From: Phycisphaerae bacterium
Lineage (GTDB): Bacteria > Planctomycetota > Phycisphaerae > UBA1845
Direction: 5' to 3'
DNA: 64,000 nucleotides
NCBI GenBank assembly: GCA_024102815.1
Contig: JAGFJJ010000068.1
Location: 7,915 to 71,914 of the forward strand
The notes beneath the pieces were generated by a model. The model was not told where the DNA came from. It worked only from the letters and a program-made list of their open reading frames with translations, and did not search any database. This document shows positions 9,839 to 35,767 of this stretch, piece by piece. Numbering within the stretch: the first letter of the stretch is position 1; each line of letters begins with the position of its first letter. A program made the position numbers and the translations under genes.

Positions 9839-9839
9839 G

Positions 9840-15176: not shown

Positions 15177-15192
15177 GCGTGTGTTCCTTCGT

Positions 15193-17538: not shown

Positions 17539-17805
17539 AGCACGCGGCGGCTCCCCACCCGCGAACCGCGAGTCACCGCCACTCGGGCGACCGTTCACGC
17601 CTCGGCACATCCTGGCAGAAGATTAACAGAATTGCGGCGCCGTACCCATGGAGCATTGCGAATAACAGAGTGCGTGGCGCCCGACGTGGACCTTTGCCGC
17701 GCACGGAATTGCGGATCGCGCTCTGTGGGGCTTCGCCAGCCGAGGCCGGGCCGCAAGAGTTCCGCGCAGACAGTGATCGAAACGATTTGAACATCATCAA
17801 GGAGC

Positions 17806-18237
17806 ATGACGATGACGCACATCGACTACTGGACTGGGTTCCAGACCGGCTATGACGCAGGTAGCGCGGACGGGTTCAAGAAAGGGATGCGATTCGTATC
17901 CTCCGCGAGCTACGATTCAGGCGACGGGGGCACATGTGGCGGCGGCCCAGCGTCAACACCTGGACGTGGACTCCGCGACCCTCGGAGTAAGGAAGCAGCG
18001 GTGCCCGGCACGATCACACTCCGCCATGGCTCGTCCGTGCCAAGACTCGACCTGGAAGCAAACCGGAAGCCGGGTGGCCGCGAGACATATTCTCGCCTGG
18101 AGCCCGCGCCACTTGGGATCGATCCATCAGGGCCACGGTCCGGCCTGATCTTCTCGAAGCCCGTGCCGCCTTTCGATATGTTCCGGCTCAGCGTGCCCAA
18201 GCTCCATCCCCCGCTCGGCCTTGGCGGTCTATCGTAA
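17806..18237 (+). CDS. hypothetical protein (weak)
   Basis: AAGGAG upstream of ATGACGATG. The product is low-complexity and Gly/Pro/Ser-rich, so coding status is doubtful. Confidence 0.25.
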   Translation: MTMTHIDYWTGFQTGYDAGSADGFKKGMRFVSSASYDSGDGGTCGGGPASTPGRGLRDPRSKEAAVPGTITLRHGSSVPRLDLEANRKPGGRETYSRLEPAPLGIDPSGPRSGLIFSKPVPPFDMFRLSVPKLHPPLGLGGLS

Positions 18238-18256
18238 CCGGACGGCCAGCGCCTGA

Positions 18257-19045
18257 TTAAGGCTCAACAAGGACCAGCTCGAAGTTGTGGTCGCCGTCGT
18301 CCCAGGCGCCGCTCAAGTCGAATCGCGCCTCCGAAGGCGACGATGCTGCCGGCTCTAACAGTTCATCTTCAGTGCGCAGACGAAGCCGGTGCACCGGGTA
18401 TGTTGCGGGTAGCGCCGCGACAACCAGTGTCTGCCCCTCGGCGTCCAGTTCAATCCGAACGTCCTTCAGCGCGTGACCCTCTCGTACGACAGCCTCTGCG
18501 ACGGGTTCGTCCTCCCCCGGGCCCAGCAGACCACTGATGAGGTCTGATCCGAGAATCAGCGCGCCGAAGCTGGCAGCAATACGGTATCCGGCCGCCAGGA
18601 TCGGAGTGGCCATCTTCGCCGCGGCTGACGATCGTTTGAGCGAGTAGACTATCGCGGGCTCAAAACCATCCGTCGAGTTCGCATTGAACTCCTCCGCGCC
18701 GATCGCTGAGAGCGCTAACGCTTCGTAGTATCTCAGCTGGCAAGCCGCGCAGTGGCGCAGGTGCTCCGCATGGGCCGATCCCTCTTCCAGTTCCACGATG
18801 TCGTCAACATTGAGGCAGTCATCCGTGACCAAAGTGGGGTCGTCGTTTTCGAACTGCTCCGGCAGCAGAAACATATAAGTCTCACGAGCACGTGTGGCGC
18901 ATTCCGTACAGTAGCGTATCCTCGCGGTGTGATCCGATATCCACCGCGCACTTTCATGCTCCGAATCACCAGTCATCAGTCTGACGAAGCGTCTTACATC
19001 ATCGATTGTAATATCTTCATGGGGCATTGTAGTCACTCGCCTCAC
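18257..19045 (-). CDS. putative membrane-anchored anti-sigma factor (zf-HC2-like)
   Basis: HLRHCAAC fits the HxxxCxxC anti-sigma zinc motif. One hydrophobic helix (ATPILAAGYRIAASFGALILGSDLISGLLG). 4-bp overlap with the upstream gene. Confidence 0.5.
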   Translation of the reverse strand: MRRVTTMPHEDITIDDVRRFVRLMTGDSEHESARWISDHTARIRYCTECATRARETYMFLLPEQFENDDPTLVTDDCLNVDDIVELEEGSAHAEHLRHCAACQLRYYEALALSAIGAEEFNANSTDGFEPAIVYSLKRSSAAAKMATPILAAGYRIAASFGALILGSDLISGLLGPGEDEPVAEAVVREGHALKDVRIELDAEGQTLVVAALPATYPVHRLRLRTEDELLEPAASSPSEARFDLSGAWDDGDHNFELVLVEP

Positions 19046-20031
19046 AGGCGATCATGAAAACCTCTGACCAAGTCCCAGACGAGGCTCTGCGTTGTGCAGT
19101 GGTCGCGTGCGACGTTACTCACTGCCTCTTTCTTCTTGATGCGGTTCTTGCGTAGCGACACGTAGCTGGAGAGGATTCTACGGTGGCGAACCGGATACTC
19201 CTCCAGTACCGACTCAATGAGGTTTGCCATCGGGGCGTTGCGTTTCACGGGTGTTTCAGCCTCTTGAACGAGGTGGCTCTTTCCCGTGGTCTCCTTCTTC
19301 ATGGCCTGAAGACAGTCTCTCACGATCGAACCGAACCTCCCGAAATACGTCATGGGACTCTCCGGCCTCTTAATTGGATGCGCTACAAGACGGCGAATAC
19401 TGCCCAAAGTGATATGATCCACGTCAGGGTTCCGTTCTTTCAGGAGGCGAGGCCAACGCTCCAGGGATTTGCCTGTCGCCTTCGAATAGCAGCCGGCCTC
19501 AAAGTGTGGGTGTGCGAGAACTTCTTCTACGCGGTGCTCTATTTGTTTCTCGCTCCAGGAAAGGCGCAGAACACCGACGTACTCATTCGTTTGGTGAGTT
19601 GCGATTGCCGTGATGTCGACCATTTGGATCAAGGCCTCTCGTGCCAACTCTCCACCGCCGAATCGTTTCCGCTCGTCGGTTCGAAGGTCTGAAAGGTCGG
19701 GGCCCCTGTTGGGGCCAGAGCACCATGGGCAGTCAGCGGGTACTATCTGATGTCCCACCCTCCCGGTCAGCCCTTCACGGATTGCGCCATCGACCAGCTT
19801 CTGCATCAGTTCCACTACGGTGGTGCGATCGTTCTCGGGATCCCACAACATCCTCCGCAGCTCCACCAGCAGCCGAAAACCGAGGGCCCGGGTCATCCGT
19901 CGCGCCGCCGATCTATTCGCCTCGCCAGCGGCCGTCACCCAGTCGTGGAGATGGTGTTCGAGGTGACCGTCATACTGGCACGCCCATAGGGAGCGTGCAC
20001 AGAGCTCAGCGAATTCCGCGAATACACTCAC
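19042..20031 (-). CDS. hypothetical protein with C-terminal sigma region-4-like HTH (possible atypical sigma factor)
   Basis: LEEYPVRHRRILSSYVSLRKNRIKKKEAVSNVARDHCTTQSLVWDLVRG resembles region 4. No clear region 2 seen. Coupled to the anti-sigma-like gene. Confidence 0.4.
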   Translation of the reverse strand: MSVFAEFAELCARSLWACQYDGHLEHHLHDWVTAAGEANRSAARRMTRALGFRLLVELRRMLWDPENDRTTVVELMQKLVDGAIREGLTGRVGHQIVPADCPWCSGPNRGPDLSDLRTDERKRFGGGELAREALIQMVDITAIATHQTNEYVGVLRLSWSEKQIEHRVEEVLAHPHFEAGCYSKATGKSLERWPRLLKERNPDVDHITLGSIRRLVAHPIKRPESPMTYFGRFGSIVRDCLQAMKKETTGKSHLVQEAETPVKRNAPMANLIESVLEEYPVRHRRILSSYVSLRKNRIKKKEAVSNVARDHCTTQSLVWDLVRGFHDRL

Positions 20032-20492
20032 CTACATCGTCCCCCGGATCGAGCACAACCCGCGATGATCAGCACAATCCCGCGGGCTCATGCCAGCTAC
20101 CATGGCTCGCCGACCGGTCAAGCCAATAGCTCCGATCCACTAACGTCCACCAAACCGACGGGGGCCTCGTACGCGCCGGCTCGGCGTGGATATCCTTGCT
20201 GCCGTCGAAGCACGCTCGGATCGTTGTGAATCGTCCCGAAAGACCCTGCCGCGACGTCACAAAGGATAGCGTATCGGAACCTCGGCGCACCTCAACCTTG
20301 AAGGGCTTCTGTGCCGTAGCGGCGCCGGCGGCCCGCCTCCGTGGTGGCGACTTCTGTCGCGGCTGGGCCGCTATTGGTGCACGCAAAGCCCTACCCGGTC
20401 TAGGGGCAGTCGGATCGCGGGATTTGGACTTGCATCCGCGTTGGGAACAGGCTCCCCGCTCCTAATCCGGCCGTCCCGACTCAGTTCGAATG

Positions 20493-21152
20493 CTACCGCC
20501 AGCTGGCCATCAGCTTGATTTCCTCGGGCAGGCGCTTGTTCAGTGCGGCCAGGTCGAAGGCTTCCGGGTCGAAGGCCCCGCCCACCCACTCGAGCATGGC
20601 GTCGTGCTCCTCGTGCTTCGGGTCGCCGATCGCCTCCAGAAAGTCCTGGTAACCCCAGGGGCCGCCACAATCCTCGGGCGGGCGGGCTCGCTCTCCGGCG
20701 AGACAGCACGGGAGCCGCTGGTCGGCTTCGCGGGGCAGGATCTTCTCGACGACGACCTCGTGGTCCCAGCCGTCGCCGAAGTCGTAAAGCAGATTGAATC
20801 GCAGGCGTTCCGCCGGAGCGACCTCCGCAAGTGTCACGGCAAACTCGTCATCCGCGTCGTCCATCTCGAACCGCGGATCGGAGTACTCCACACCGTCGAT
20901 CGTGAACTGATGGAGGTGGCTGTTCGTCCAACCCATGGCCGCCTGCAGGATGAAGTTCAATTCGCCCAGGGTGATCTCCGACGGGGCTAGCACCCGACGC
21001 CAGATCGGGGGATCGACCTCAAGCAGGGTAATTTTCAGCTGGTGGACAGTGCCTCCGGTTCGAACCGTCTGTTTGGAGCGGGTTCGCTTCGTGGCCATTC
21101 CATGGCTCCGATTAGATGGATCCTTGACCCGCGGCCTCGCCGCCGCTTGCAC
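20493..21152 (-). CDS. pRiA4b ORF-3-like family protein
   Basis: VHQLKITLLEVDPPIWRRVLAPSEITLGELNFILQAAMGWTNSHLHQF...DFGDGWDHEVVVEKI...PPEDCGGPWGYQDFLEAI is the hallmark of this family. Start may be ATG 21098. Confidence 0.85.
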   Translation of the reverse strand: MQAAARPRVKDPSNRSHGMATKRTRSKQTVRTGGTVHQLKITLLEVDPPIWRRVLAPSEITLGELNFILQAAMGWTNSHLHQFTIDGVEYSDPRFEMDDADDEFAVTLAEVAPAERLRFNLLYDFGDGWDHEVVVEKILPREADQRLPCCLAGERARPPEDCGGPWGYQDFLEAIGDPKHEEHDAMLEWVGGAFDPEAFDLAALNKRLPEEIKLMASWR

Positions 21153-21308: not shown

Positions 21309-21686
21309 TCAGATCAATTCGTCGAACGGCGTCGGCGGTTCCGGTAGATTACGCATGCTCCAATCGAAGAGCTCGTGCGTCATACGGCCGTCTTCGTACC
21401 GGACCGGCTCCGGTTCGGGTTCTGGGGCGTAGGCAGGTGGCGGCGGGGCCAGCCGCTGATAGCGCTCCGCTGCCGGTAGTTCCGGCTCGTATGGATCATA
21501 CGGCGGCCAAGGTGACACGTCGCCGGCATAAGGATCGCTCACCGGCAATCCGAAGTAGGGGTGGCTTTGCGACGCGGATTCGACCATCAGGCTTTCGATC
21601 CCACCGACCGGGCCGGAGGGACCGCGATCGGCCATTAGATCTGAAAGCTCCCTGCGTTGCGGCATGAAGTCGTCGTTTGAATGCAT
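21309..21686 (-). CDS. hypothetical Pro-rich protein (weak)
   Basis: 125-aa ORF, Pro/Glu/Tyr-rich. No family recognised. Confidence 0.3.
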   Translation of the reverse strand: MHSNDDFMPQRRELSDLMADRGPSGPVGGIESLMVESASQSHPYFGLPVSDPYAGDVSPWPPYDPYEPELPAAERYQRLAPPPPAYAPEPEPEPVRYEDGRMTHELFDWSMRNLPEPPTPFDELI

Positions 21687-21951
21687 GTTTCGGTTCCCTG
21701 TTGTCGTATGCCGGTTATGTGTCCGTCAGCACGTCGTCCCAGTCCTTACTCGTGAAGTCTGCCCCGTCATAGGGATCAGCGGATGGAGGTTGCGGGCGGT
21801 TTCAGGAAACCAGCTGCTGCTCCGTAGTACTCGGCGAAACGTCTCCGCAGAGGATCTCGAATTGTAGAGAGTTGACTCTCGATGGGCGTCGTTCGGATTT
21901 GTTGTCTGAGTCCCTCCAAGTGGACAGTGCCGGAGCGCTGGGCGACGGCCA

Positions 21952-22020
21952 GGGCCGGCGAGCGATAAGCTCGATGTCTTCCGGCAGACGCTTGCTCAAG
22001 GCGGTCAGGCAGCAGCTCAT
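21952..22020 (-). pseudogene. remnant of a second pRiA4b ORF-3-like gene (C-terminal fragment)
   Basis: FD|MSCCLTALSKRLPEDIELIARRPW aligns with the C-terminus FDLAALNKRLPEEIKLMASWR of 20493..21152. An in-frame TAG lies just upstream and the family body is absent. Confidence 0.35.
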
Positions 22021-22164
22021 GTCAAACTAGGCAATTTGAAGATGCGGGCTAACAGTCGGATGTTCCCCGCCCTCTACATGATACCAGCACCGTCCCGGAC
22101 GCGACCAGGGAGGGAACCGAGACCCTGACGACCACGTTTGCGCTTGGCGCGGAGCCACGCGCCG

Positions 22165-22182
22165 ATACAATTCCTATTGTAT
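22165..22182. promoter_or_regulatory. palindrome ATACAAT-TCCT-ATTGTAT upstream of the sigma-54 activator gene (possible operator)
   Basis: Perfect 7-bp arms, 28 nt upstream of ATG 22210. Function is inferred from position only. Confidence 0.2.
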
Positions 22183-22209
22183 GTTGCACAAAGGCGGATG
22201 TGAAATGCC

Positions 22210-23775
22210 ATGACGCGAACCTTAGTATCGTGGGTCGGGCACGCGGACCTTCGGGCGCTCGCCGCTCAGCTGCCGACTCGCGAGAGAAACGCGTTGTCGG
22301 AGATTGTCGGAGCCGTTCCCACGGATCCAGACGGGCCGATCAAGTCACTGGTTCGCGCCGAACGTTTTGACTCGATCCATCTGCTAAGCAACTACGATTC
22401 TCGCTGGAACAAGAGGTTCGCCGCATGGATTGGTCGCAATTGTGAAGTGCACAGAGTCTCCCTCCGCAACCCGACGGATTACGCGGCCATTTACGAAAGT
22501 GCCTCGAACTCGCTTGCATCGCTGACAACGGGTGGCGTCAACCAAGACGACGAATTGTGCATCCACCTGAGCCCCGGCACACCGGCGATGACGGCGATCT
22601 GGGTCCTTCTCGGCAAGACACAGTACCCCGCAACCTTCTATCAAACACACAAGGGAAAGTCCTGGGTCACGGAGATCCCGTTCGACATCACCCTCGATCT
22701 TGTGCCGAAACTGCTAAGGCAACCGGATGCCCATTTTCAGCATCTGGCCGCGAAGGGTCCGGAAGAAGTCGAAGGCTTCGGCAGCATTGTGGGCAACAGC
22801 AAGGCTATTCGACTTGCGGTCGGCCGCGCACAGCGCGCTGCAATACGCAGTGTGCCGGTACTACTGCTCGGAGAAAGCGGAACCGGGAAGGAAATGTTCG
22901 CACGGGCGATTCACGCTGCGAGCTCCAGGCGACACGGCCCGTTCATCGCAATCAACTGCGCGGCGGTTCCACGTGAGCTGCTCGAAGCCGAATTGTTCGG
23001 ATACGCCAAGGGTGCCTTCACCGGAGCGGTCAAGAGCAAGCCGGGCGCATTCGAGCAGGCAGACGGCGGGACGTTGTTTTTGGACGAAATCGGAGAGTGC
23101 GATGGGGCAATGCAAGCGAAGCTGCTTCGCGTTCTCCAGCCCACACCGGAATCGGGCCCGTGCGACCGCGTTTTTCGACCGGTCGGCGCGACGGCCGACA
23201 AAGCCGCCGATGTTCGGCTGATATCGGCGACCAATCGCGATCTTGCCAACGAGGTGCTAGAAAACCGATTCCGCGAGGATCTGTTCTATCGGGTTGCCGT
23301 CATCACCGTCTCACTTCCGGCCTTACGCGATCGCCGATCCGATGTCCCCCTGCTCGCGGAGCACTTGATGGCGACGATCAACCAGCAAGCGATGTCGGAC
23401 GAACCGGGCTACAAGGACAAATGCCTTTCTGATAGTGCAAAAGCATTTGTGAAACAGCACGACTGGCCCGGTAACGTCCGGCAGTTGTACAACGCCCTTC
23501 TTCAGGCAGCTGTGATGTCCGAGACCGAGCGAATCGACCGCGCCGATCTCGCCGCCGCCGTCACGGACCTTCCTCAACAGAACCGCCGGGATATTCTCGA
23601 ATTGCCCCTTGGAGGCACGTTTAGCCTCGAAAAGCACCTGGAATTCGTGCACAAGCACTATCTGCGGCGGGCAATGAGCGAGGCTGGCGGCAAGAAGACC
23701 CAAGCCGCGTCGCTGCTTGGAATGAAGAATTACCAGACGCTGGACGCACAGCTCAAACGGCTAGGAGTAGAGTGA
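22210..23775 (+). CDS. sigma-54-dependent transcriptional activator with RtcR-type (CARF-like) N-terminal sensor domain
   Basis: AAA+ core: LLLGESGTGKEMFARAIH, GYAKGAFTGAV (GAFTGA), LFLDEIGE. C-terminal Fis-type HTH KKTQAASLLGMKNYQTLDAQLKRLG. N-terminal NPTDYAAIYES...LCIHLSPGTPAMTAIWVLL parallels E. coli RtcR NPWDFEEVYA...YLIHITTGTHVAQICWFLL. Confidence 0.85.
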   Translation: MTRTLVSWVGHADLRALAAQLPTRERNALSEIVGAVPTDPDGPIKSLVRAERFDSIHLLSNYDSRWNKRFAAWIGRNCEVHRVSLRNPTDYAAIYESASNSLASLTTGGVNQDDELCIHLSPGTPAMTAIWVLLGKTQYPATFYQTHKGKSWVTEIPFDITLDLVPKLLRQPDAHFQHLAAKGPEEVEGFGSIVGNSKAIRLAVGRAQRAAIRSVPVLLLGESGTGKEMFARAIHAASSRRHGPFIAINCAAVPRELLEAELFGYAKGAFTGAVKSKPGAFEQADGGTLFLDEIGECDGAMQAKLLRVLQPTPESGPCDRVFRPVGATADKAADVRLISATNRDLANEVLENRFREDLFYRVAVITVSLPALRDRRSDVPLLAEHLMATINQQAMSDEPGYKDKCLSDSAKAFVKQHDWPGNVRQLYNALLQAAVMSETERIDRADLAAAVTDLPQQNRRDILELPLGGTFSLEKHLEFVHKHYLRRAMSEAGGKKTQAASLLGMKNYQTLDAQLKRLGVE

Positions 23776-23795
23776 AATGGAACGACTCCACTTGC

Positions 23796-23811
23796 TGGCA
23801 CGGCCCCTGCA
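23796..23811 (+). promoter_or_regulatory. candidate sigma-54 (-24/-12) promoter upstream of hsdR
   Basis: cTGGCACG-GCCC-CTGCA versus the consensus YTGGCACG-N4-TTGCW. Correct GG/GC spacing with one mismatch in the -12 box. Lies 20 bp after the activator stop and ~110 bp before ATG 23923. Confidence 0.5.
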
Positions 23812-23922
23812 TAAGTACGGGCGATGCAAAGCGAATCGACAAGAGCGGTGCAGTCCCAAAACGCTGTTACCGGTGCGCGCCAGGCCGGGCGGTTCACGGG
23901 ACCATGCCGGGAGCTCGACAGG

Positions 23923-26900
23923 ATGAAATCGGCGAACTTCGAGTTTCTACGCGGCCGATGGAAGGAGCTCGCGGGCCTTGGCGGGTTCGCCGAGCATTAC
24001 GTTCATCCTGACCCTCCAAGTGCCGCGGTCAAGCTTCGTTCCTACGCCGAGCAAATCGTTGAGCTTATCTGGGAAACCGCTCGTCTTCCAAAGCTCTTCC
24101 AAGCCAACCTTAACGATAAGCTGAACAACGATACGTTTCGAGAAGTCGTGCCGCGTGTTGTCGTGTCAAAGCTCCATGCGCTGAGAATCCACGGCAACAA
24201 GGCTGCGCACGGCGAAAAAGTGACCGCCTCGACCGCGCAGTGGCTCCTTCGCGAAGCCTTTGAGCTCGGGCGTTGGCTCCTCGTCGCATCAGGCGCCGGA
24301 AGTAAGGACGACTGCCCAGACTTCATTGAGCCATCACCGCCATCCGCCAAACCATCTGCCGATCAACTCAAGCAAGAAAAGCGTGCAGTGCTCGAGAAGC
24401 TTGCCGCACAAGAAGCGGAGATGCTAAAGCTCCTCGCCGAACTGGAAGCGGCGCGTGAGGCGGCCCAGACGGCGGAAGCCAGCGCTGACGAACTACGTTC
24501 CACACTCGAAGCCGGAACTCAGGCGGCAAACGTACTCGATTTCACCGAAGAACAAACTCGGCATGCGCTCATAGATTCCATGCTCATCAGTGCCGGCTGG
24601 GACGTCGGCCGAAACCGTCAGAGCAATTCGGAAGTAGGCCAAGAGATCGAAGTCGAGCATCAGCCCACCGACTCCGGCATCGGCTACGCCGACTATGTGC
24701 TCTACGACGAAGATGAAGTGACACCTCTAGCAGTAATCGAAGCGAAGAAGACATCCAAGGACGCTGAGGCCGGGAGGACCCAGGCCAAGTGTTATGCAGA
24801 CGGTCTTGAGCAGATGTCAGGCACTCGACCTGTCATCTTCTACACCAACGGGTTCGACATCTGGATTTGGAACGACGCCGAACATGAGCCACCACGCAAA
24901 ATCTTCGGCTTCTATTCCAAGGACAGCCTGCAGTACAAGCACTTTCAGCGACAGTACCCAATGGCCCCGTCGGTGGTCAAACCCGACGCGCAGATCGCGG
25001 GCCGACTCTACCAGATGGAAGCCATCAACCGCGTCGTGGAACGCTACGCAGCAAAACACTCCAGGGCTTTGCTCGTTCAGGCAACCGGTACCGGCAAAAC
25101 GCGCGTGGCCGTGTCTTTGTGCGCGGCGTTGATTAATGCGAAGCGCGTCCGACGAGTTCTGTTCCTTTGCGACCGACGGGAGCTACGGAAACAGGCCCAC
25201 AACGTGTTCAAACGGTTCTTGCCCGGCGAGCCGCGCGTCTACGTCAGCGCCACAACTGCCCAGGATCGCGACAAGCGCATTTACCTTGCGACCTACCCTG
25301 CCATGATGAAGTGTTTCGAGAGCTTCGACGTGGGCTTCTTCGATCTCATCATCGCGGACGAGTCCCATCGCAGCATCTACAACCGCTACCGGGATCTCGT
25401 TCGATACTTCGATGGCCTGTGCCTCGGGCTGACGGCCACGCCGCGAAGTGACTTGGTCTCACACAATACCTATCAGCTTTTCGGCTGCGACGACGGTGTT
25501 CCAACGGCCTACTTCAGCTACGAAGATGCAATCAATGCCAACCCGCCGTATCTGAGTCGGTTCGAGGTCGAGAAGGTTACGACGCCGTTCCTGCGCAAGG
25601 GCATCAAATACACCGAGATGACGGCCAAGCAGCGCGAGCAGCTCGAGGAAGACGAAGTGATGCCGGAGGCGATAGAGTTCGAGCAGCGTGAGGTTGACAA
25701 GCACATTTTCAACAAGGACACCAACCGTAAGATCCTTCGGAACCTGATGGAACACGGCATCCGTGACGCATCGGGCACGCGGGTCGGAAAGACCATCATC
25801 TTCGCGCGCAACCACAACCATGCCGTCTTGCTGCAGAACCTCTTCGATGAAATGTATCCACAGTATGGTGGAAACTTCTGCCGCGTGATTGACAACTACG
25901 ATCCACGCGCCGAGGAGCTCATCGACGATTTCAAGGGCGAGGGCAAGAATCCGGATCTGACGATCGCAATTTCCGTCGACATGCTCGACACGGGCATCGA
26001 CGTTCCCGAAATCGTAAACCTGGTGTTCGCCAAGCCGGTCTACTCGTACATCAAGTTCTGGCAGATGATCGGCCGGGGCACCCGTCTTTGCGAGGATCTC
26101 TTCGGGCGCGGCCAGAACAAGTCGAAGTTCCTCATCTTCGACCATTGGGGCAACTTCGAGTACTTCGAAGAACAGTACAAGGCCGCGGAGGTGAGCCTGC
26201 CGAAATCATTGCCTCAGCGACTCTTCGAGGCCCGCATCCGTTTGGCGGAAGCCGCGCTACAGCAGCAAGACACCGAGGCCTTCGACCTAACGATCTCGCT
26301 GATTCGGCAGGATATCGCCGACCTCCCCGACAAGACCATCGCCGTGCGCGAACACTGGAAGCAGATCAAAATCGTGGAACGCGAAGAACTGTTGCGCCAG
26401 TTCGATGCCGCAACCAAGGGAGTCCTTTTCCAGGAAATCGCTCCGCTCATGCAATGGCGAAATGTGGCGGGCCACGAGGCCGCGTACAAGTTCGATCTGA
26501 ACATGTGCATGGCCCAGAAAGCCCGGCTGGACAACGCCAGCCGGTACGGCGACCTGCGGGACGATCTTCGCAACCAGATCGAGCAGCTTCAGATGAACCT
26601 CAGCCAGGTCCGCGCCAGGGCGTCGGCCATCAACGAAGCGCGCAGTGCCGCCTTCTGGGATAACGCGACTGTATCCGACCTTGAGCGAATCCGTAGCGAG
26701 CTGCGCGGAATCATGAAGTACCGTCAGCCGTCGACGACGACAGCCTACCAACCCAAGGTCATCGACGTCGTCGAGGATGACGCGCTGATCGAACGAAAGC
26801 CGCACAAGGTTAAGCTGGAAGGGCTCGATCTCGCGGCCTACCGCGCCCGCGTCGAGCAGGTTCTCAAGGAACTCTTCGATGAAAACCCGACACTGCAACG

Positions 26901-27324
26901 CATCCAACGGGGCGAGCCGGTCACCGACGACGATCTACGCGCGTTGAATTCACTTGTGTTGACCCAGGACCCCGAACTCGACCTTTCCGAGTTGACGGAG
27001 TACTACCCCGAGACCGCCGGCCACCTGGACCTGGCGATCCGCAACATCATCGGCCTGGATGGCGCCGCCGTCCGCCGGCGATTCGAGACGTTTGTGCAGA
27101 CCCACGCGTCGCTGAACTCGCAGCAGATTCGTTTTCTAGACATGCTACAGAACCACATCGCCAGCTACGGCTCGATTACGGTCGATCGGCTTTACGAAGA
27201 TCCGTTCACCTCGCTCCACAGCGACGGCATCGATGGCGTGTTCACCGACGAGGCGACGATCCAGGAACTCATTGACATCATCGGGGCCTTCAACCCGGCC
27301 GCGCAAGGAGGCGAAAGCGAATGA
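23923..27324 (+). CDS. hsdR: type I restriction enzyme R subunit (DUF4145-like N-terminus, HSDR_N nuclease, SF2 helicase, EcoEI-type C-terminal domain)
   Basis: MKSANFEFL...[11 protein letters not shown] (DUF4145-like). [23 protein letters not shown] (PD-(D/E)xK). [10 protein letters not shown] and DESH helicase motifs. QMIGRGTR motif VI. Start at ATG 23923 preferred over the track start 23824. Confidence 0.9.
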
Positions 27325-28880
27325 TTACCGGCAAACTCAAGAGCGATATCAACAAGCTCTGGGATGAATTCTGGACTGGCGGCATCAGTAACCCGCTGAC
27401 CGTCATCGAGCAGATCACCTACCTCATGTTCTTCCGGCTGCTCGATCTCGCGGCAGCCCGGGAAGAAAAAAAGGCAGCTCGCACCGGCAAGAAGGCAACA
27501 ACGCCATTCAACAAGAAGCAGCAACTCCTTCGCTGGTCGCAATTCAAGAGCCTCGGCGGCGAGGAGATGCTCAAGCGCATCCGCGACGAGGTGTTCCCCC
27601 ATTTTCGCGACATGGCCAGCGAGGAATCGACCTTTGGGCGTTACATGAAGGACGCCCAGCTGATGATTCAAAAGCCGAGTCTGCTCGTCTCGGCCGTCTC
27701 GATGATCGACAACCTCCCGCTCGACAAGGGCGATACCAAGGGCGATCTGTACGAATACGTCCTCAGCAAACTCACGACCGCCGGGATTAACGGCCAGTTC
27801 CGCACACCGCGCCACATCATCCGCCTCATGGTCGAACTGGTCGATCCCAAGCCGGACGAAACCGTTGGCGACCCGGCCTGTGGAACCGGCGGGTTTCTTG
27901 TCGCAGCCATGACCTATCTGCTGGAGAAATACACGTCCAAGGCCGGGCGCATCGAACAACTCGACGAAGACGGCCGACCGGTCAAGGACGATCGCGGCAA
28001 TCCGCAGTACATCTACACCGGCGACAAACTTGAACCCTACCGCAAACATATTCAGCGCGACATGTTCCACGGCTTCGATTTCGACGCCACCATGCTGCGC
28101 ATCGCCGTGATGAACATGATGCTCCACGGCGTCGATAATCCCAGCATCGACTACCAGGATGCGCTCAGCAACTCCTTTCCCGAGCGCTTTCCGAAGACGG
28201 CCTCCGACCACTTCGATGTCATTTTGGCCAATCCGCCGTTCAAGGGCAGCCTCGATCACAGTGACGTGCATTCGTCACTAACGGGCAAGATCAAGACGAA
28301 GAAGACCGAGCTGCTCTTTCCGACGCTCATGCTGCGCATGCTGAAGGACCCGGGCGGGCGATGTGCAGTTATCGTCCCGGACGGTGTCCTGTTCGGTTCG
28401 TCCAAGGCCCATCGCGATCTCAAGCAGATGCTCGTGGACGACAATGAGCTGCACGCGGTGATCAAGCTGCCGGCTGGCGTGTTCAAGCCCTACGCCGGAG
28501 TATCGACGGCCATTCTGTACTTCGCCAAGGGGGGTAAGACCGGCGACGTGTTCTTCTACGATGTGCAGGCCGACGGGCTCAGCCTGGACGATAAGCGCAC
28601 GCCCGTCGACGAGAATGATCTTCCCGATGTGATGGCGCAGTGGAATAGGTGGAGTAACGGTAATGGCAAGAAATCGTTCGCCGATCGCAAGAACAAAGCG
28701 TTCTTCGTTCCGGTTTCGGATATCCGCGAAGCCAAATACGACCTTTCCATCAACCGCTACAAGGAGGTCGTCTACGAGGAGCCCGAGTTCGACCCGCCGA
28801 AAGCAATCTTGAAGCGATTGGCCAAGTTGAACGAACAAGAGGCCAAAGAGCTTGCTGAGCTGGAGGGAATGCTGAAGTGA
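27321..28880 (+). CDS. hsdM: type I R-M N6-adenine DNA methyltransferase subunit
   Basis: [13 protein letters not shown] (motif I) and LANPPFKG (NPPF). 4-bp overlap with hsdR. Confidence 0.95.
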
Positions 28881-30094
28881 TGCGTATGGCGGCATTGCAA
28901 GACGTAACTGAGCTAAACCCTTCGACACCGCGGGAACTAAGCGAGCGCCCTGAGCTCCCTGTCAGTTTCGTGCCAATGACTGATGTCGGAGAGGATGGTC
29001 GTCTTCACAACGGCCAGGAGCGCCCAGTCGGCGAGTTACTGAAGGGCTATACGTACTTCTCTGAGGGCGACGTGCTAGTCGCGAAGATCACGCCGTGCAT
29101 GCAAAACGGTAAGGCGGCGCACGTGACCCGGCTGAAAAACAAACACGCGTTCGGTTCGACCGAATTCCACGTTCTTCGTCCCGGCCCGACGCTTGACGGT
29201 CGATACCTCTTTTACATGGTCTGGAATCCAGCGTTCAGGCACTACGCCGAGCAGCGATTCACAGGCTCTGCGGGCCAAAAGCGCGTTCCCGCGACCGCAG
29301 TCGCGGAATTCAAGATCCCAATTCCATTTCCGAATGATGCGAAGCGCAGTCTAAAGGAGCAGAAGCGGATCGCGGAGATCCTCGACAAGGCCGACGCCAT
29401 CCGGCAACAGCGCCAAGAAGCCGCCAAGCTGGCCGGTGACCTCATCCCGAGCTTATTCTACACGACCTTCGACGACTGGCTCCGTGCGCCTGTCGAAGAG
29501 ATGCGCAGGCTCGGCGACGAAGATCTTGCGGATATCGCGTCCGGCGTTACGAAGGGGCGTCGATTCAATGGTCAGCAGACTGTCATCGTTCCCTACATCC
29601 GCGTCGCAAATGTACAGGACGGGTATCTCGACCTTTCGGAGATCAAGACAATAGAAGTCCTGCCATCCGATGTTGAATCGCTGCGGCTCGAACACGGCGA
29701 TGTCCTTATGACAGAAGGTGGTGACTTCGATAAGCTCGGGCGTGGCACGATTTGGGAACATGATGTTCCCGATTGCATTCATCAGAACCATATCTTTCGC
29801 GTTCGGTGCAACAGGAACTTACTTCTGCCGCTGTACTTTGCGCATTACATCCGAAGCCACCTTGGCAAGGCGTATTTTCTCAGATGCGCAAAGAAGACAT
29901 CGAATCTCGCGACCATCAATAAAACTCAGTTGCGAGACTTGCCTGTCCCGCTGCCTCCCATAGCCTTGCAGAAGGCATTTGCCAAAGAAGTGAAAGGCAT
30001 CCGCAAAATACAGGGCCGCCACGCTGAAATATGCTATGCTGGCGATGACCTCTTCAACTCGTTGGCACAGCGGGCATTTCGGGGAGAGCTATGA
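28877..30094 (+). CDS. hsdS: type I R-M specificity subunit (two target-recognition domains)
   Basis: [23 protein letters not shown]...[10 protein letters not shown]...TGSAGQKRV...[19 protein letters not shown] and a second TRD. 4-bp overlap with hsdM. Confidence 0.85.
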
Positions 30095-31404
30095 GCCACT
30101 TCGATAATAGGTTCCAAAACCACGCACTGCAGAACTCTCTGAAAGAGCTCCAACAGAAGATCGATTCCGCCAAGCTGAAACTGGACGATACCGCGCAAAC
30201 CGAAGGATACGCCCGGTTCTGCAAGATCGTGAGTCTCGCGAAGGGCGTACTTGAGACCGTCGATCCGGAACTTGTTACAGAGCAGGCGCTCAATCAGGTG
30301 CAGGGCGCCATCTCGAACATGTCTGCCCATTTCGATGCCTTTGTTGAAAAGAAGGATTGGAACCACCTCAACCAACCGGCCGACCAACTCCTGAACGTCC
30401 TCCACTTGCTGCCGCGAAACGAGCTGGCGGATGGCGATAGGCCATATGCCGAGCAAATCGCCAAGCTACAAGGCGCCGCTGAATCCGTAGTCGATGGTTT
30501 GCGCGCCGGTGCCGTGAAGATCGAAAAACAGCATCAACAGGTCGCCCAGAAGGTCAGCCAATTGGGTCAAAAGGTCGGTGCCTTCGAGAGCGAGATCGTT
30601 GAGCAGAAGAAACGCATCGACACCCTGATCAATGAGCAAACCACGCAGTTCTCTCAGAGGGCGGAAGAACGAAACACCAAGTTCAACGAGCAACATGGCC
30701 GATTCGAGCAAACCGAGAGCCAGCGGGCGCAGCAGTTTGCCGAGCGATTCGGGCAGTTCAAAACTGAGCACAAAGAAGTAACGAACGAAATCCGCGAGTC
30801 GGCGAAGAAGCTCTTGGATGAACAGCGCACCGCCTTCGATACGCTTGTTTCAGAGCATCGCTCAGAATCCCAGGAGGTGCTCGACGAGCTCAAGGTCAAT
30901 CTCGAAGAAGCGGCCAAGATTGTGGGGCTGATCGGGAACACGGGCCTAACTGGAAACTACCAGCGCGTGGCGAACGCGGAGAAGAAGATCGCTGACCTCT
31001 TTCGCTGGATCGCCATAGGATGCATGTTGGTGATGGTTGTGTGTGTCGTTCTCATCGTGCGAAACATCACCGCGCAGGACTTCAACTGGGAAATAGCGCT
31101 GTTCCGTCTACTCGCGGCGATCGCTTTCGGAGCGCCGGCATGGTACTGCGCGCACGAATCCACGCGTCACCGCAGAAATGAGCATCGAAACCGCCGCATC
31201 GAACTGGAATTGGCGTCCCTGAGCCCATACTTGGCTGAGATGCCGGATGAGGAACGACGTAAGATCATCGCTGAACTCTCAAAGGATTACTTTGGCCGCG
31301 AGGATGATCTGGGGCAAGACGAGATCGTCAACAAGCTAAAGCACCTTCGCGGCGAGGACCTGATCAAGCTGATGGAGCGATTGCTGAAGGCAGCGCGGCC
31401 ATGA
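30091..31404 (+). CDS. coiled-coil protein with two predicted transmembrane helices, translationally coupled to hsdS
   Basis: ATGA overlap with the hsdS stop. Long Gln/Glu/Lys-rich helical N-terminal region. Hydrophobic helices WIAIGCMLVMVVCVVLIV and LFRLLAAIAFGAPAWYCA. No family recognised. Confidence 0.65.
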   Translation: MSHFDNRFQNHALQNSLKELQQKIDSAKLKLDDTAQTEGYARFCKIVSLAKGVLETVDPELVTEQALNQVQGAISNMSAHFDAFVEKKDWNHLNQPADQLLNVLHLLPRNELADGDRPYAEQIAKLQGAAESVVDGLRAGAVKIEKQHQQVAQKVSQLGQKVGAFESEIVEQKKRIDTLINEQTTQFSQRAEERNTKFNEQHGRFEQTESQRAQQFAERFGQFKTEHKEVTNEIRESAKKLLDEQRTAFDTLVSEHRSESQEVLDELKVNLEEAAKIVGLIGNTGLTGNYQRVANAEKKIADLFRWIAIGCMLVMVVCVVLIVRNITAQDFNWEIALFRLLAAIAFGAPAWYCAHESTRHRRNEHRNRRIELELASLSPYLAEMPDEERRKIIAELSKDYFGREDDLGQDEIVNKLKHLRGEDLIKLMERLLKAARP

Positions 31405-31556
31405 AAGTGAACGGGAAGATCGACAAACGCCGCACGAGATTCGTATTGAGTAGCGCCGCGCCGGCCGGACTAGGGGGCGCATTAAATGGCGATTGACTGG
31501 ATATCGGCCACGGAACCGTTCAACTCGCTTGTACAGCGAGCGTCTCGAGGAGAGCT

Positions 31557-32210: not shown

Positions 32211-32229
32211 ATATTGTAGGAGTTGCCCC

Positions 32230-32547
32230 ATGTCCGAAATCGTGAAACGAGTTTCGCTACATTTTCCGGAAGAGAATTTGACCACCACGGCAAAAGTAGC
32301 TAACGCGATCATTCGCCCCGTCTACATTCGAGAAGAAGGTGAGGACACCTGTGTTTACTTACTCGTTGACGATAAGGAACAAACCACGGATGCTGATTTC
32401 TTCCTGCTGGCAACCAATGAAGCGATGCCCCCACGCCGAAACGCGGAATGGTTAGGTTCTTACGTGCGCGGCGACGGCGAAGTTTGGCACTTATTCGTCG
32501 AGCATCGCGCGGATAAAGGCCACAAATTCTGGAAGGCTTATGCATGA
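32230..32547 (+). CDS. hypothetical protein
   Basis: Internal ATG 32230 (MSEIVKRVSLHF...) lies 8 nt after AGGAG. The upstream part of track ORF 32035..32547 overlaps the previous gene. Confidence 0.4.
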   Translation: MSEIVKRVSLHFPEENLTTTAKVANAIIRPVYIREEGEDTCVYLLVDDKEQTTDADFFLLATNEAMPPRRNAEWLGSYVRGDGEVWHLFVEHRADKGHKFWKAYA

Positions 32548-34633: not shown

Positions 34634-34639
34634 GGTCGC

Positions 34640-35743: not shown

Positions 35744-35767
35744 GGTGATGGAATCGCGGCGGACCGC

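What the first reader, a model, noticed from the sequence alone, without database searches (positions are those of the whole stretch)
22210..23923. RtcR-type CARF/sigma-54 activator placed directly in front of a type I R-M operon that carries a sigma-54 promoter match
The activator has a full bEBP core (Walker A/B, GAFTGA, Fis HTH). Its N-terminal domain aligns with the RtcR sensor domain (LCIHLSPGTPAMTAIWVLL versus E. coli YLIHITTGTHVAQICWFLL).

Twenty bp after its stop lies CTGGCACGGCCCCTGCA (23796..23811). This has the correct -24 GG / -12 GC spacing and one mismatch to TTGCW. It lies ~110 bp upstream of the hsdR ATG.

RtcR normally controls the rtcBA RNA-repair genes in response to RNA-damage-type ligands, and no rtcB or rtcA gene is present here. 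A restriction-modification operon, and possibly the pAgo cassette downstream, under ligand-gated sigma-54 control would be an unusual regulatory logic for innate defence genes.
Basis: partly seen in the sequence, partly recalled or inferred. Interest (0 to 1): 0.8.

Follow-up and report, generated by a model that had tools for sequence, protein, structure and literature searches.

The report
CARF-gated sigma-54 switch for restriction genes
A sensor-regulator gene sits in front of a DNA-restriction operon with a conserved sigma-54 promoter and its own likely binding sites; this gene pairing was already predicted in 2014 and 2024, so what is new here is the DNA control elements that make it testable.

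Summary
ORF 22210..23775 encodes a 521-aa CARF, sigma-54 AAA+ (GAFTGA) and Fis-HTH activator. TGGCACGGCCCCTGCA lies 20 nt after its stop and 112 nt before hsdR (ATG at 23923).

The promoter is not a chance match. Of 71 related loci, mostly Planctomycetota, 56 carry a -24/-12 element (at most 2 mismatches) within 120 nt after the activator stop. Only 0.9% of random windows do. Among loci with HsdR downstream, 44 of 45 carry it.

I also found a candidate activator binding site: tandem ACAA-N6-TTGT palindromes about 20 bp apart. In the window they lie before the activator gene, inside activator codons 403-414, and 76-109 bp upstream of a second sigma-54 promoter (37733) before a DUF2130 gene. The intragenic copy overrides codon bias.

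The protein is not RtcR proper. It scores below the NCBIfam cutoff, has no Pfam RtcR hit, and no rtcBA lies nearby. It belongs to the catalogued RtcR_PspF2 CARF_AAA_HTH subfamily.

The link to R-M was predicted by Makarova et al. 2014 and extended by Bell et al. 2024. This is therefore a new member of a known kind, with new cis-regulatory detail. Control of the pAgo cassette is unresolved, and the ligand is unknown.

The parts
22144..22171 (+). Sigma-70-like promoter of the activator gene (TTGGCG, 16 nt, TACAAT).
   Evidence: The TACAAT box about 45 nt before the ATG is conserved in most related loci, and a TTGACG-type -35 is visible in L001, L005 and L074. Its function is inferred.
22167..22201 (.). 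Upstream tandem pair of ACAA-N6-TTGT sites (22167..22180 exact; 22188..22201 one mismatch), overlapping the -10 box and 5' leader of the activator gene. Candidate autoregulatory site. In relatives it would serve as the UAS for a divergent sigma-54 promoter.
   Evidence: 28 loci have a strict pair at -60..-40 from the ATG. One search shows divergent promoters 97-160 bp away in L002, L037, L054, L076, L080 and L081.
22210..23775 (+). CARF-AAA+(sigma-54)-HTH activator, 521 aa, RtcR_PspF2 subfamily. CARF domain about aa 1-160; AAA+ aa 193-367; lid aa 373-457; Fis-type HTH aa 477-516.
   Evidence: PDLC01995, 2.5e-168. Searches give an AF2 model with pLDDT 83 whose top PDB matches are all CARF proteins. 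Searches compare it with E. coli RtcR.
23417..23450 (.). Intragenic tandem pair (ACAAATGCCTTTCT at 23417..23430; GCAAAAGCATTTGT at 23437..23450) inside activator codons 403-414, 346-379 bp upstream of the hsdR sigma-54 promoter. Candidate enhancer (UAS).
   Evidence: One search shows a peak of synonymous-site conservation. One search gives the codon alignment. One search shows TCT 47/49 vs 11% gene-wide and CTT 29/30 vs 16%. One search finds 39 loci with a strict pair at -390..-360 from the stop. One search shows co-occurrence with the promoter (46/6/1/10).
23796..23811 (+). Sigma-54 promoter P_hsdR, TGGCAC-GGCCC-CTGCA (-24 GG, -12 GC; one mismatch at about -15).
   Evidence: It is conserved at +15..+50 after the activator stop in 44 of 45 HsdR-linked loci, against 0.9% of random 120-nt windows.
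23923..27324 (+). hsdR (1133 aa; DUF4145 + HSDR_N + ResIII + EcoEI_R_C; EcoAI/EcoEI-like). The true start is MKSANFEFL, not the upstream in-frame ATG at 23824.
   Evidence: The gene call also gives 1133 aa. Homologues start at the same residues.
27321..28880 (+). hsdM (N6_Mtase, HsdM_N). Its start overlaps the hsdR stop.
28877..30094 (+). hsdS (Methylase_S). Its start overlaps the hsdM stop.
30091..31404 (+). Unknown 437-aa protein whose reading frame overlaps the end of hsdS. Only weak ZorA/LeoBC-type matches (aa 13-317). Probably part of the same transcript.
37624..37657 (.). Second intergenic tandem pair (ACAAACAGGCTTGC at 37624..37637; ACAAGTCGCCTTGT at 37644..37657, exact), 76-109 bp upstream of the second sigma-54 promoter.
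37733..37748 (+). Second sigma-54 promoter, TGGCACGGCGGTTGCC, 45 nt before the DUF2130 gene.
   Evidence: DUF2130 genes preceded by sigma-54 promoters also flank the activator in L013, L029, L081 and L082.
37793..39259 (+). DUF2130 gene (488 aa). Likely a second target of the activator.

Best explanation
The 521-aa protein is a bacterial enhancer-binding protein. Its N-terminal CARF domain holds the AAA+ motor inactive until a signal is sensed, probably an infection- or damage-derived nucleotide or RNA species.

Proposed mechanism:
1. The protein binds tandem ACAA-N6-TTGT palindromes through its Fis-type HTH.
2. Once activated, it uses its GAFTGA loop to remodel sigma-54 RNA polymerase at TGGCAC-N5-TTGC promoters.
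3. In this window it has two target promoters. P_hsdR (23796) drives hsdR-hsdM-hsdS and the overlapping 437-aa gene. A second promoter (37733) drives the DUF2130 gene and probably the genes after it.
4. The enhancer for P_hsdR is embedded in the activator's own coding sequence (23417..23450).
5. A third site pair overlaps the activator's own sigma-70-like promoter, which suggests autoregulation.

The activator plus promoter behaves as a portable, inducible head for defence islands in Planctomycetota. Type I R-M is the commonest cargo.

Shown: domain architecture, CARF fold, conservation of the promoter, conservation and placement of the palindromes.
Inferred: that the activator binds those palindromes, that transcription starts at the -24/-12 element, that the CARF domain is inhibitory and ligand-gated, and what the ligand is.
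For: Architecture:
- Sigma54_activat 3.9e-63, HTH_8 and an intact GAFTGA and Walker A/B.
- The N-terminal domain models confidently (pLDDT 83, pTM 0.77). Its 23 PDB matches with E<=1e-3 are all CARF proteins: Sis0811, SSO1393, Csm6, Cad1, Cam1.
- PADLOC RtcR_PspF2--CARF_AAA_HTH hits full length at 2.5e-168.

Promoter:
- 56 of 71 loci have an element with at most 2 mismatches within 120 nt after the stop; 43 of 71 have at most 1 mismatch.
- Random windows give 0.9% and 0.07%. The reverse strand gives 2 of 71.
- 44 of 45 loci with HsdR downstream have it, while the flanking intergenic sequence is unalignable.

Binding site:
- 73 tandem pairs in 63 loci (891 kb), against 0-1 per shuffle replicate, at two fixed positions.
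- The intragenic copy fixes synonymous positions against codon bias. In some loci Ser is replaced by Cys (TGT) or Ala by Thr (ACA), which makes the site perfect.
- The intragenic pair co-occurs with the downstream promoter: 46 both, 10 neither, 6 promoter only, 1 pair only. Fisher p = 6e-7, not corrected for phylogeny.
- Where the pair is intergenic it lies 97-160 bp upstream of a sigma-54 promoter, the canonical UAS distance. This holds for the window's DUF2130 promoter and for L019, L081, L002, L080, L037, L054 and L076.

Other support:
- The recognition helix x(N/S/H)YQTL is conserved in the family. It differs in proteobacterial homologues, and the two proteobacterial loci examined (L087, L088) lack the motif.
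- No rtcA or rtcB lies near any of the 84 related loci first fetched, L001-L084.
- The loci without hsdR directly downstream that I annotated mostly carry defence-like cargo: AAA_15/AAA_21 ATPases, NACHT/STAND proteins, ResIII helicase, VWA+FtsK.
- rpoN is present and expressed in the planctomycete R. baltica (PMC2754498).
- The same prediction was made independently from gene neighbourhoods (PMC4012209; PMC11090510).
Against: - There are no experimental data: no mapped transcription start, no binding assay, no ligand.
- rpoN could not be checked in the source genome. The window comes from a metagenome contig and contains no rpoN among the ORFs scanned against Pfam, which were most ORFs of at least 150 aa.
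- The intragenic enhancer lies about 350-380 bp from P_hsdR. That is farther than typical UAS distances, although enhancers are known to act at such range (established knowledge).
- Binding of the palindromes by the activator, rather than by another protein, is inferred only from co-inheritance.
- There is no terminator between the activator and hsdR, so read-through from the activator's own promoter may give constitutive R-M expression.
- Inducing a restriction enzyme without prior methylation would be self-toxic. Some constitutive hsdMS expression must exist, and it was not identified.
- About 10 family members (the Gemmata-type L048, L052, L058, L060 and L061, plus L039, L043 and L078) have neither a nearby sigma-54 promoter nor the intragenic pair. 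Their targets are unknown.
Confidence: 0.72

Rival explanations
1. The promoters are real sigma-54 promoters controlled by this activator, but the ACAA-N6-TTGT tandem sites are not its enhancer. They would be bound by a different protein, such as a repressor or nucleoid protein. Alternatively the activator binds them only for autoregulation, and the true UAS lies elsewhere or is dispensable.
For: Binding is inferred only from co-inheritance. The intragenic pair is unusually far from P_hsdR (346-379 bp). The upstream pair overlaps the activator's sigma-70-like -10 box, a typical operator position. The proteobacterial homologue on the P. luteola plasmid keeps the promoter but lacks the motif.
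Against: The same tandem architecture sits at canonical UAS distance (97-160 bp) from independent sigma-54 promoters in the window and in at least 7 other loci. The intragenic pair is lost exactly where the downstream promoter is lost. No other conserved regulator gene accompanies the module.
Confidence: 0.13
2. The activator is not gated by a small nucleotide or RNA ligand. Instead it is controlled by protein partners binding the CARF domain, as reported for RtcA and RtcB with RtcR. Or it is constitutively active, so the sigma-54 promoter merely sets a fixed expression level.
For: Kotta-Loizou et al. 2022 (PMC9650030; abstract shown) report that RtcAB bind the RtcR CARF domain directly. Makarova 2014 notes that the RtcR family mostly lacks the positively charged pocket residue of canonical CARFs. 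No cyclase or cOA synthase was seen among the ORFs scanned in the window.
Against: The CARF pocket motifs (WIGHxDL, HLSPGTPAM) are nearly invariant across the family, as expected for a ligand site. Cargo genes vary between loci, so no single partner protein is conserved with the activator apart from HsdRMS in about two thirds of loci.
Confidence: 0.1
3. The -24/-12 match is fortuitous or vestigial. The R-M operon would be expressed constitutively by read-through from the activator's promoter or from an unrecognised sigma-70 promoter. The activator would regulate unlinked genes and merely hitchhike in defence islands.
For: There is no terminator between the activator and hsdR. R-M systems are classically constitutive (established knowledge). 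Within the window alone the motif count is only mildly above chance.
Against: The element is conserved at the same place in 44 of 45 HsdR-linked loci, while the surrounding sequence has diverged beyond alignment. It co-occurs with the tandem sites. It is also present in a 41%-identical proteobacterial plasmid homologue.
Confidence: 0.03
4. It is a true RtcR orthologue that regulates an rtcBA RNA-repair operon located elsewhere in the genome.
For: The best NCBIfam hit is RtcR. It is 30% identical to E. coli RtcR, and the alignment includes part of the CARF domain.
Against: The score is 314.9 against a cutoff of 650. There is no Pfam RtcR domain hit at E<=0.01. The separate PADLOC subfamily model scores 559 bits against 187 for RtcR. 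No rtcA or rtcB lies in the window or within 8-10 kb of the activator in any of the 84 related loci first fetched, L001-L084.
Confidence: 0.02

Closest known systems
RtcR_PspF2 CARF_AAA_HTH family: the 'RtcR-like proteins associated with R-M systems' of Makarova et al. 2014 (PMC4012209). The profile name is carried in PADLOC-DB as PDLC01995; from memory, it comes from the 2020 CARF classification, which I could not access.
   Same: Full-length match to the profile at 2.5e-168. Same CARF-AAA+-HTH architecture. Same association with R-M instead of rtcBA. Same predicted logic: a ligand sensed by CARF switches on sigma-54 transcription of restriction genes.
   Different: Nothing places it outside this family. 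This work adds elements I did not find in the papers I could read: the conserved -24/-12 promoter, the tandem ACAA-N6-TTGT sites (including one pair inside the coding sequence), and additional promoters for other cargo.
RtcR homologues heading defence 'superoperons' (type I R-M, Druantia III, Shield, CoCoNuT) in Pseudomonas and others; Bell et al. 2024, eLife (PMC11090510).
   Same: The activator sits at the 5' end of a long co-directional array of defence genes that includes type I R-M. Plasmid homologues 41-42% identical to the window protein show exactly these layouts. P. luteola has activator, then HsdR, then MTase, then S. Polaromonas pPNAP01 has activator, then DUF4258, VWA, PP2C, kinase and AAA.
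   Different: No CoCoNuT (McrBC-like) genes were seen among the window's scanned ORFs. The cargo here is type I R-M, a pAgo-SIR2 cassette, a DUF4209 protein, DUF2130 and an AAA_15 ATPase. The lineage is planctomycete. The ACAA-N6-TTGT motif is absent from the two proteobacterial loci examined.
E. coli / Salmonella RtcR, activator of rtcBA.
   Same: CARF + sigma-54 AAA+ + HTH. 30% identity over 385 aa, including the beta4 motif of the CARF domain. It acts at a sigma-54 promoter. By established knowledge (Genschik 1998, cited), the N-terminal domain is inhibitory.
   Different: It fails the RtcR equivalog cutoff and has no rtcBA nearby. The target is co-directional and downstream rather than divergent. 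The C-terminal HTH region is unrelated in sequence.
WYL-domain regulators of defence systems. Makarova et al. 2014 predicted WYL and CARF proteins as ligand-binding transcriptional regulators of CRISPR-Cas and other defence systems. The names BrxR and CapW are recalled from memory.
   Same: A ligand-sensing transcription factor is encoded at the head of a defence locus and makes innate immunity inducible.
   Different: From memory, those proteins are sigma-70 repressors that are released on a DNA-damage or phage signal. This one is an ATP-dependent sigma-54 activator with essentially zero basal open-complex formation.

Membership tests
Bacterial enhancer-binding protein (sigma-54 activator) | AAA+ Sigma54_activat domain with Walker A/B and the GAFTGA sigma-54 contact loop | tested here: met
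   PF00158 at 3.9e-63. GESGTGKE, GAFTGA and LFLDEIGE are present and conserved in 120 homologues.
Bacterial enhancer-binding protein (sigma-54 activator) | C-terminal DNA-binding HTH | tested here: met
   PF02954 HTH_8 at aa 477-516, 22.2 bits against a cutoff of 22. The recognition helix NYQTL is conserved.
Bacterial enhancer-binding protein (sigma-54 activator) | A cognate -24/-12 promoter and rpoN in the genome | tested here: inconclusive
   The promoter is present and conserved. rpoN could not be checked in this metagenomic genome. It is present in the planctomycete R. baltica.
CARF superfamily | Six-stranded Rossmann-like CARF fold | tested here: met
   AF2 model with pLDDT 83 and pTM 0.77. 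All 23 Foldseek PDB matches with E<=1e-3 are CARF proteins, best 1.6e-6.
CARF superfamily | Sequence-profile match to a curated CARF model | tested here: inconclusive
   Pfam Cas_Csm6_CARF scores 18.8 bits, below its cutoff of 27.5. PADLOC CARF4, Csx1/Csm6 and CARF1 give 1e-6 to 2e-4.
RtcR (RNA-repair activator, NCBIfam NF038308 equivalog) | Score above the curated equivalog cutoff | tested here: not met
   314.9 bits against a cutoff of 650.
RtcR (RNA-repair activator) | Pfam RtcR N-terminal domain | tested here: not met
   Not among the Pfam hits at E<=0.01. Only remote similarity: hhalign probability 87.6%, E 3.5e-6.
RtcR (RNA-repair activator) | Genomic linkage to rtcB/rtcA | tested here: not met
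   No tblastn hit in the window or in the 84 related loci first fetched, L001-L084. The positive control was found.
RtcR_PspF2 CARF_AAA_HTH subfamily (PADLOC PDLC01995) | Full-length profile match, better than to sister models | tested here: met
   559 bits, aa 3-521 against model positions 2-481 of 481. RtcR_PspF1 scores 244 bits and RtcR 187 bits.
RtcR_PspF2 CARF_AAA_HTH subfamily | Association with R-M or defence genes rather than rtc genes (Makarova 2014) | tested here: met
   45 of 71 loci have HsdR directly downstream. Most of the other loci examined carry AAA_15, NACHT or helicase cargo.
Type I restriction-modification system (EcoAI/EcoEI-like) | HsdR (HSDR_N + ResIII helicase + EcoEI_R_C), HsdM (N6_Mtase + HsdM_N) and HsdS (Methylase_S) in one operon | tested here: met
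   The genes overlap at 27321/27324 and 28877/28880. The NCBIfam EcoAI and PRK11448 hits are below their equivalog cutoffs, so the subtype is approximate.
Sigma-54 promoter | GG and GC separated by 10 nt within TGGCAC-N5-TTGCW | tested here: met
   TGGCACGGCCCCTGCA at 23796 and TGGCACGGCGGTTGCC at 37733.
Sigma-54 promoter | Transcription start about 12 nt downstream of the -12 GC; dependent on rpoN and a bEBP | not testable with these tools
   Needs 5'-RACE or dRNA-seq and genetics.

The most novel reading that the evidence does not exclude
The activator's enhancer is written into its own coding sequence. Two ACAA-N6-TTGT sites are imposed on codons 403-414, to the point of dictating Ser/Cys and Ala/Thr choices. 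Gene, enhancer and promoter therefore travel as one indivisible cassette. That cassette can make any downstream defence cargo inducible: type I R-M, STAND NTPases, AAA_15 ATPases, TIR genes. Further UAS-plus-promoter units, such as the one before DUF2130, extend the regulon inside the island. The CARF domain would sense an infection signal not yet identified. Restriction in many Planctomycetota would then be an induced response rather than a constitutive one.
Probability: 0.45. Interest if true: 0.65.

Novelty: new member of a known kind. Interest (0 to 1): 0.5.

Why it matters
R-M systems are usually treated as constitutive barriers. A sigma-54 promoter has almost no basal activity, so a CARF-gated activator would make restriction and its neighbouring defence genes an all-or-none, signal-induced response.

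That idea has stood as a neighbourhood-based prediction since 2014. I found no experimental test of it in the searchable literature.

This window and its relatives now supply concrete, mutable elements:
- the promoter;
- three site pairs;
- a codon-embedded enhancer.

Several cultured strains also carry the module: Novipirellula rosea (L030), N. herctigrandis (L072), Botrimarina hoheduenensis (L066), Gemmata algarum (L052) and Pirellulaceae SH449 (L065). Together these make the prediction directly testable and give a handle for identifying the CARF ligand.

Tried and rejected
1. A universally conserved UAS in the last 120 codons next to the promoter. Third-position conservation there is explained by codon bias alone. 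The real signal was further upstream, at codons 398-414.
2. Shared 9-mers and simple inverted repeats among the window's intergenic regions. These gave only weak hits until the ACAA-N6-TTGT pattern emerged from cross-locus comparison.
3. An RNA-element explanation for the conserved leader or upstream motif. Rfam finds nothing in 21500..24100 at E<=1 apart from a chance miRNA hit. The half-sites are conserved in sequence rather than by covariation.
4. A divergent sigma-54 promoter upstream of the window's activator, as in L002 and L080. None with at most 2 mismatches exists in 21600..22200. The 125-aa ORF there is unrelated to L002's divergent gene.
5. A sigma-54 or UAS element in front of the pAgo cassette (gaps 31405..31556 and 32211..32713). 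None was found. Terminator and sigma-70 scans there are at chance level.
6. The site pair at 61806/61820. Its 14-bp spacing is wrong and there is no promoter nearby, so I treat it as chance.
7. The 2020 CARF classification paper could not be retrieved.

Full report
**1. The observation**

ORF 22210..23775 (+) encodes 521 aa.
- Pfam finds Sigma54_activat (3.9e-63), AAA_lid_14 and a Fis-type HTH_8 at threshold. It also finds a sub-threshold Cas_Csm6_CARF hit at aa 80-134.
- Walker A (GESGTGKE), GAFTGA (nt 23011..23028) and Walker B (LFLDEIGE) are intact. They are conserved in 120 full-length homologues.
- The best NCBIfam model is RtcR, but at 314.9 bits against a cutoff of 650. It is the only bEBP model whose alignment reaches into the N-terminal domain, from aa 79.
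- BLASTP against E. coli K-12 RtcR gives 30% identity over 385 aa from aa 83 (E 3e-43). A profile of the N-terminal 190 aa matches RtcR aa 13-161 with 87.6% probability.
- TGGCACGGCCCCTGCA lies at 23796..23811. That is 20 nt after the stop and 112 nt before the hsdR ATG at 23923.
- The longer ORF from 23824 is an in-frame upstream extension. Homologues and the independent gene call begin at MKS(A/L)NFEFL.
- Downstream, hsdR, hsdM and hsdS overlap end to start.

**2. Is the N-terminal domain a CARF?**

An AlphaFold2 model of aa 1-190, built on an 11-sequence alignment, has pLDDT 83 and pTM 0.77. It shows six strands alternating with helices.

All 23 Foldseek matches in the PDB with E<=1e-3 are CARF proteins. 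They include the Sis0811 ring nuclease, SSO1393, Csm6, Cad1 and Cam1; Card1, Can2 and Csa3 follow just below that threshold.

PADLOC-DB carries a dedicated model, RtcR_PspF2--CARF_AAA_HTH. It matches the whole protein at 2.5e-168. The scores are 559 bits for that model, 244 for RtcR_PspF1 and 187 for RtcR. The protein is therefore a catalogued RtcR-like subfamily, not RtcR itself.

A search of 1.84 billion cluster representatives with the N-terminal profile finds 1238 proteins at E<=1e-3. The listed hits of about 490-600 aa all carry the match at or near the N-terminus, as expected for full-length CARF-AAA+-HTH proteins; the many shorter hits are probably gene fragments.

**3. Is the gene arrangement habitual?**

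The 120 best of 8000 database hits are full-length at 57-65% identity. Named sources are Planctomycetota.

Contigs for two of them show activator, then hsdR, hsdM and hsdS on one strand. Variable cargo follows (TIR_2; AAA_15/SMC-like), and an integrase lies upstream.

Almost all are Planctomycetota, with a few Lentisphaerae. Eighty loci were kept.

Of 71 loci with a complete activator 3' end, 45 have an HsdR homologue starting within 400 nt downstream.

The loci without hsdR directly downstream that I annotated mostly carry other defence-like genes there:
- AAA_15/AAA_21(+DUF3696) ATPases in L011, L015, L077 and L083 (second gene after the activator in L083);
- NACHT/STAND NTPases in L012 and L026;
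- a ResIII helicase in L068;
- VWA plus FtsK in L064;
- DUF6642 in L078.

L038 (a Peptidase_S74 and adhesin-repeat protein), L052 and L075 gave nothing informative.

No RtcA or RtcB homologue occurs in the window or in any of the 84 loci L001-L084.

Homologues at 41-42% identity sit on proteobacterial plasmids.
- P. luteola has activator, then an HsdR-like helicase, a methyltransferase and an S subunit.
- Polaromonas pPNAP01 has activator, then DUF4258, VWA, PP2C, a kinase and an AAA protein. This is the superoperon type described by Bell et al..

**4. Is the promoter more than chance?**

In the window alone TGGCAC-N5-TTGCW (at most 1 mismatch) occurs 5 times against 1.5 expected. Two of these are on the + strand in intergenic DNA.

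Across loci the signal is decisive.

| Region scanned | At most 1 mismatch | At most 2 mismatches |
|---|---|---|
| 120 nt after the activator stop, + strand (71 loci) | 43 of 71 | 56 of 71 |
| Same region, reverse strand (71 loci) | 0 of 71 | 2 of 71 |
| 1374 random 120-nt windows from the same loci | 0.07% | 0.9% |
| Loci with HsdR downstream (45 loci) | 36 of 45 | 44 of 45 |

The surrounding intergenic sequence is otherwise unalignable.

The distance from the -12 element to the hsdR ATG falls into two classes: about 38-41 nt and about 88-117 nt. The window belongs to the long class. The P. luteola plasmid homologue also has TGGCACGATCCTGGCT 3 nt after its stop.

**5. A candidate binding site**

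Aligning the 75 nt upstream of the activator start codons revealed a conserved block. It reads (G)TACAAT-N4-5-TTTGTG-N5-7-CACAAA, followed by GGTG and the ATG.

Independently, third-codon-position conservation in the activator gene peaks at codons 398-414. The codon alignment there reads cAC AAA nnn cTT TCT nnn nnn GCA Ann nnn TTT GTG.

Both blocks resolve into two 14-bp palindromes, ACAA-N6-TTGT, spaced 20-21 bp apart.

| Codon | Codon fixed at this site | Gene-wide use of that codon |
|---|---|---|
| Ser407 | TCT in 47 of 49 | 11% |
| Leu406 | CTT in 29 of 30 | 16% |
| Ala410 | GCA in 32 of 40 | 17% |
| Phe413 | TTT in 51 of 51 | 42% |
| Lys404 | AAA in 47 of 51 | 42% |

L064 and L068 use TGT (Cys), and several loci use ACA (Thr). 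Both changes make the sites perfect.

In 63 non-redundant loci (891 kb), tandem pairs with at most 1 mismatch each and 19-22 bp spacing occur 73 times. Mononucleotide shuffles give 0-1 per replicate. The pairs sit as follows:
- 28 at -60..-40 from the activator ATG;
- 39 inside the activator gene, 38 of them at -390..-360 from the stop;
- 6 elsewhere. Three of these lie 97-109 bp upstream of another sigma-54 promoter (window DUF2130, L019, L081) and one (L082) lies about 90 bp upstream of the promoter after its activator stop.

In the window the pairs are 22167+22188, 23417+23437 and 37624+37644.

With a relaxed threshold, the intragenic pair and the downstream promoter co-occur: 46 both, 10 neither, 6 promoter only, 1 pair only. 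Fisher's p is 6e-7 without phylogenetic correction. Two of the six 'promoter only' loci, L081 and L082, have the pair in the intergenic space instead.

Several loci also have a divergent sigma-54 promoter 110-290 bp upstream of the activator. In six of them (L002, L037, L054, L076, L080, L081) a site pair with one mismatch in total lies 97-160 bp from that promoter, in the usual pre-ATG position except in L081; L013 and L029 have weaker or more distant pairs, and L082 has none.

The HTH recognition helix x(N/S/H)YQTL is conserved across the planctomycete family. It is different in the two proteobacterial homologues examined, whose loci lack the motif.

**6. The second target in the window**

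TGGCACGGCGGTTGCC at 37733 lies 45 nt before the DUF2130 gene (37793..39259). A site pair lies 76-109 bp upstream of it.

DUF2130 homologues adjoin the activator in L013, L029, L078, L081 and L082. Sigma-54 promoters face them in four of the five.

By contrast, nothing resembling a sigma-54 promoter or a site pair precedes the pAgo-SIR2-DUF4209 cassette at 32714..37618. That cassette may be co-transcribed from P_hsdR or have its own promoter. This cannot be decided here.

**7. Mechanism**

The best-supported model has four steps.
1. The activator is made from its own sigma-70-like promoter (TTGGCG-16-TACAAT). That promoter overlaps a site pair, suggesting autoregulation.
2. The activator dimerises on tandem sites.
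3. On a signal sensed by the CARF domain, it assembles and drives open-complex formation at P_hsdR and at the DUF2130 promoter.
4. By analogy with RtcR, whose N-terminal domain is inhibitory (Genschik 1998, as cited), a CARF deletion should be constitutive.

The ligand is unknown. RtcR-type CARFs mostly lack the basic pocket residue of cOA-binding CARFs. For RtcR, both 2',3'-cyclic-phosphate tRNA fragments and RtcAB proteins have been proposed as inputs.

How self-restriction is avoided on induction is unresolved. Read-through from the activator promoter, with no terminator in between, could supply basal methylase.

**8. Prior knowledge and novelty**

Makarova et al. [quoted passage not shown] They predicted sigma-54 activation of DNA restriction in response to phage-derived ligands.

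Bell et al. 2024 described RtcR homologues at the head of co-directional defence superoperons up to 40 kb long that contain type I R-M. They mention a hypothetical UAS but define no promoter or site.

I found no experimental study.

The finding is therefore a new, planctomycete member of a known and predicted kind. What appears new relative to the papers I could read is:
- the conserved -24/-12 promoter;
- the tandem palindromes;
- the enhancer embedded in the coding sequence;
- the multi-promoter regulon.

rpoN could not be verified for this metagenomic genome. It exists and is expressed in R. baltica.

**9. Context**

The window looks plasmid- or ICE-like. It carries Replic_Relax, PRiA4_ORF3, DUF2958, a HerA/TraG-like ATPase and a Cdc6/Orc1-like AAA+ protein. 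G+C content is lower across about 24-44 kb.

Noticed in passing
window 32714..37618: A class II pAgo (PADLOC pAgo_II, 1.5e-212) is followed by a class II Aga_SIR2 (1.6e-123) and a DUF4209 / PDC-S39 protein. This looks like a catalytically inactive long-pAgo + SIR2 type defence cassette with a third gene. No sigma-54 or UAS element precedes it.
   Followed up: partly
window 37793..42770: The operon behind the second sigma-54 promoter holds DUF2130 (488 aa, zinc-ribbon-like N-terminus), an unknown 319-aa protein, an AAA_15/AAA_21+DUF3696 ATPase (NsnB / PDC-M55A / HEC-03B-like, 1.5e-39) and an unknown 313-aa protein. DUF2130 recurs next to this activator family in 5 other loci.
   Followed up: partly
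window 61630..61800: Iteron-like direct repeats (CTCGATAAAC(C/T)TTT..GG..CCAT ... AA(A/G)GTTTACGAA, two copies about 90 bp apart) lie about 1.4 kb downstream of a Cdc6/Orc1-like AAA+ gene (58948..60195). This may be a replication origin of a plasmid-like element.
   Followed up: no
window 16465..21152 and 50237..56719: Mobile-element hallmarks are present: Replic_Relax (16465..17538), PRiA4_ORF3-like (20493..21152), DUF2958 (50237..51025) and a HerA/TraG-like ATPase (54602..56719). The whole window may be a plasmid or an integrative element.
   Followed up: no
window 900..16400, minus strand: A long minus-strand gene array consists mostly of proteins with no Pfam family. Embedded in it are a Ser/Thr kinase-TPR protein (5641..7275) and a ThiF/E1-like protein (13229..14719). 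It may be a conflict system of unknown type.
   Followed up: no
window 44089..47222, minus strand: A CobT-like VWA protein (44089..45972) sits next to a MoxR/CbbQ-like AAA_5 ATPase (46071..47222). This is a MoxR-VWA pair directly after the defence island.
   Followed up: no
L064 and L068 (activator codon 407); L009, L013, L016, L021, L031, L033, L035, L064, L068 and L072 (activator codon 410): Amino-acid replacements in the activator, Ser to Cys (TGT) and Ala to Thr (ACA), coincide with making the embedded ACAA-N6-TTGT sites perfect. A DNA-level constraint seems to be shaping the protein sequence.
   Followed up: partly
L048, L052, L058, L060 and L061 (Gemmataceae); L039, L043 and L078: These family members keep the pre-ATG motif but have no intragenic site pair. 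They also have no sigma-54 promoter with at most 1 mismatch anywhere in the fetched locus of 10-17 kb. Their targets are unknown.
   Followed up: partly
L001 18084 (Phycisphaerae RAS1-related contig): A perfect sigma-54 consensus (TGGCACGCTGCTTGCT) lies inside the island, ahead of a small-gene and TIR_2 cassette downstream of hsdS. No recognisable ACAA-N6-TTGT pair lies within 300 bp.
   Followed up: partly
window 23824..23922: An in-frame ATG at 23824 sits almost exactly at the predicted sigma-54 transcription start. It would add 33 residues to HsdR. Homologues and an independent gene call do not use it, which leaves a 5' leader of about 100 nt with no known function.
   Followed up: partly
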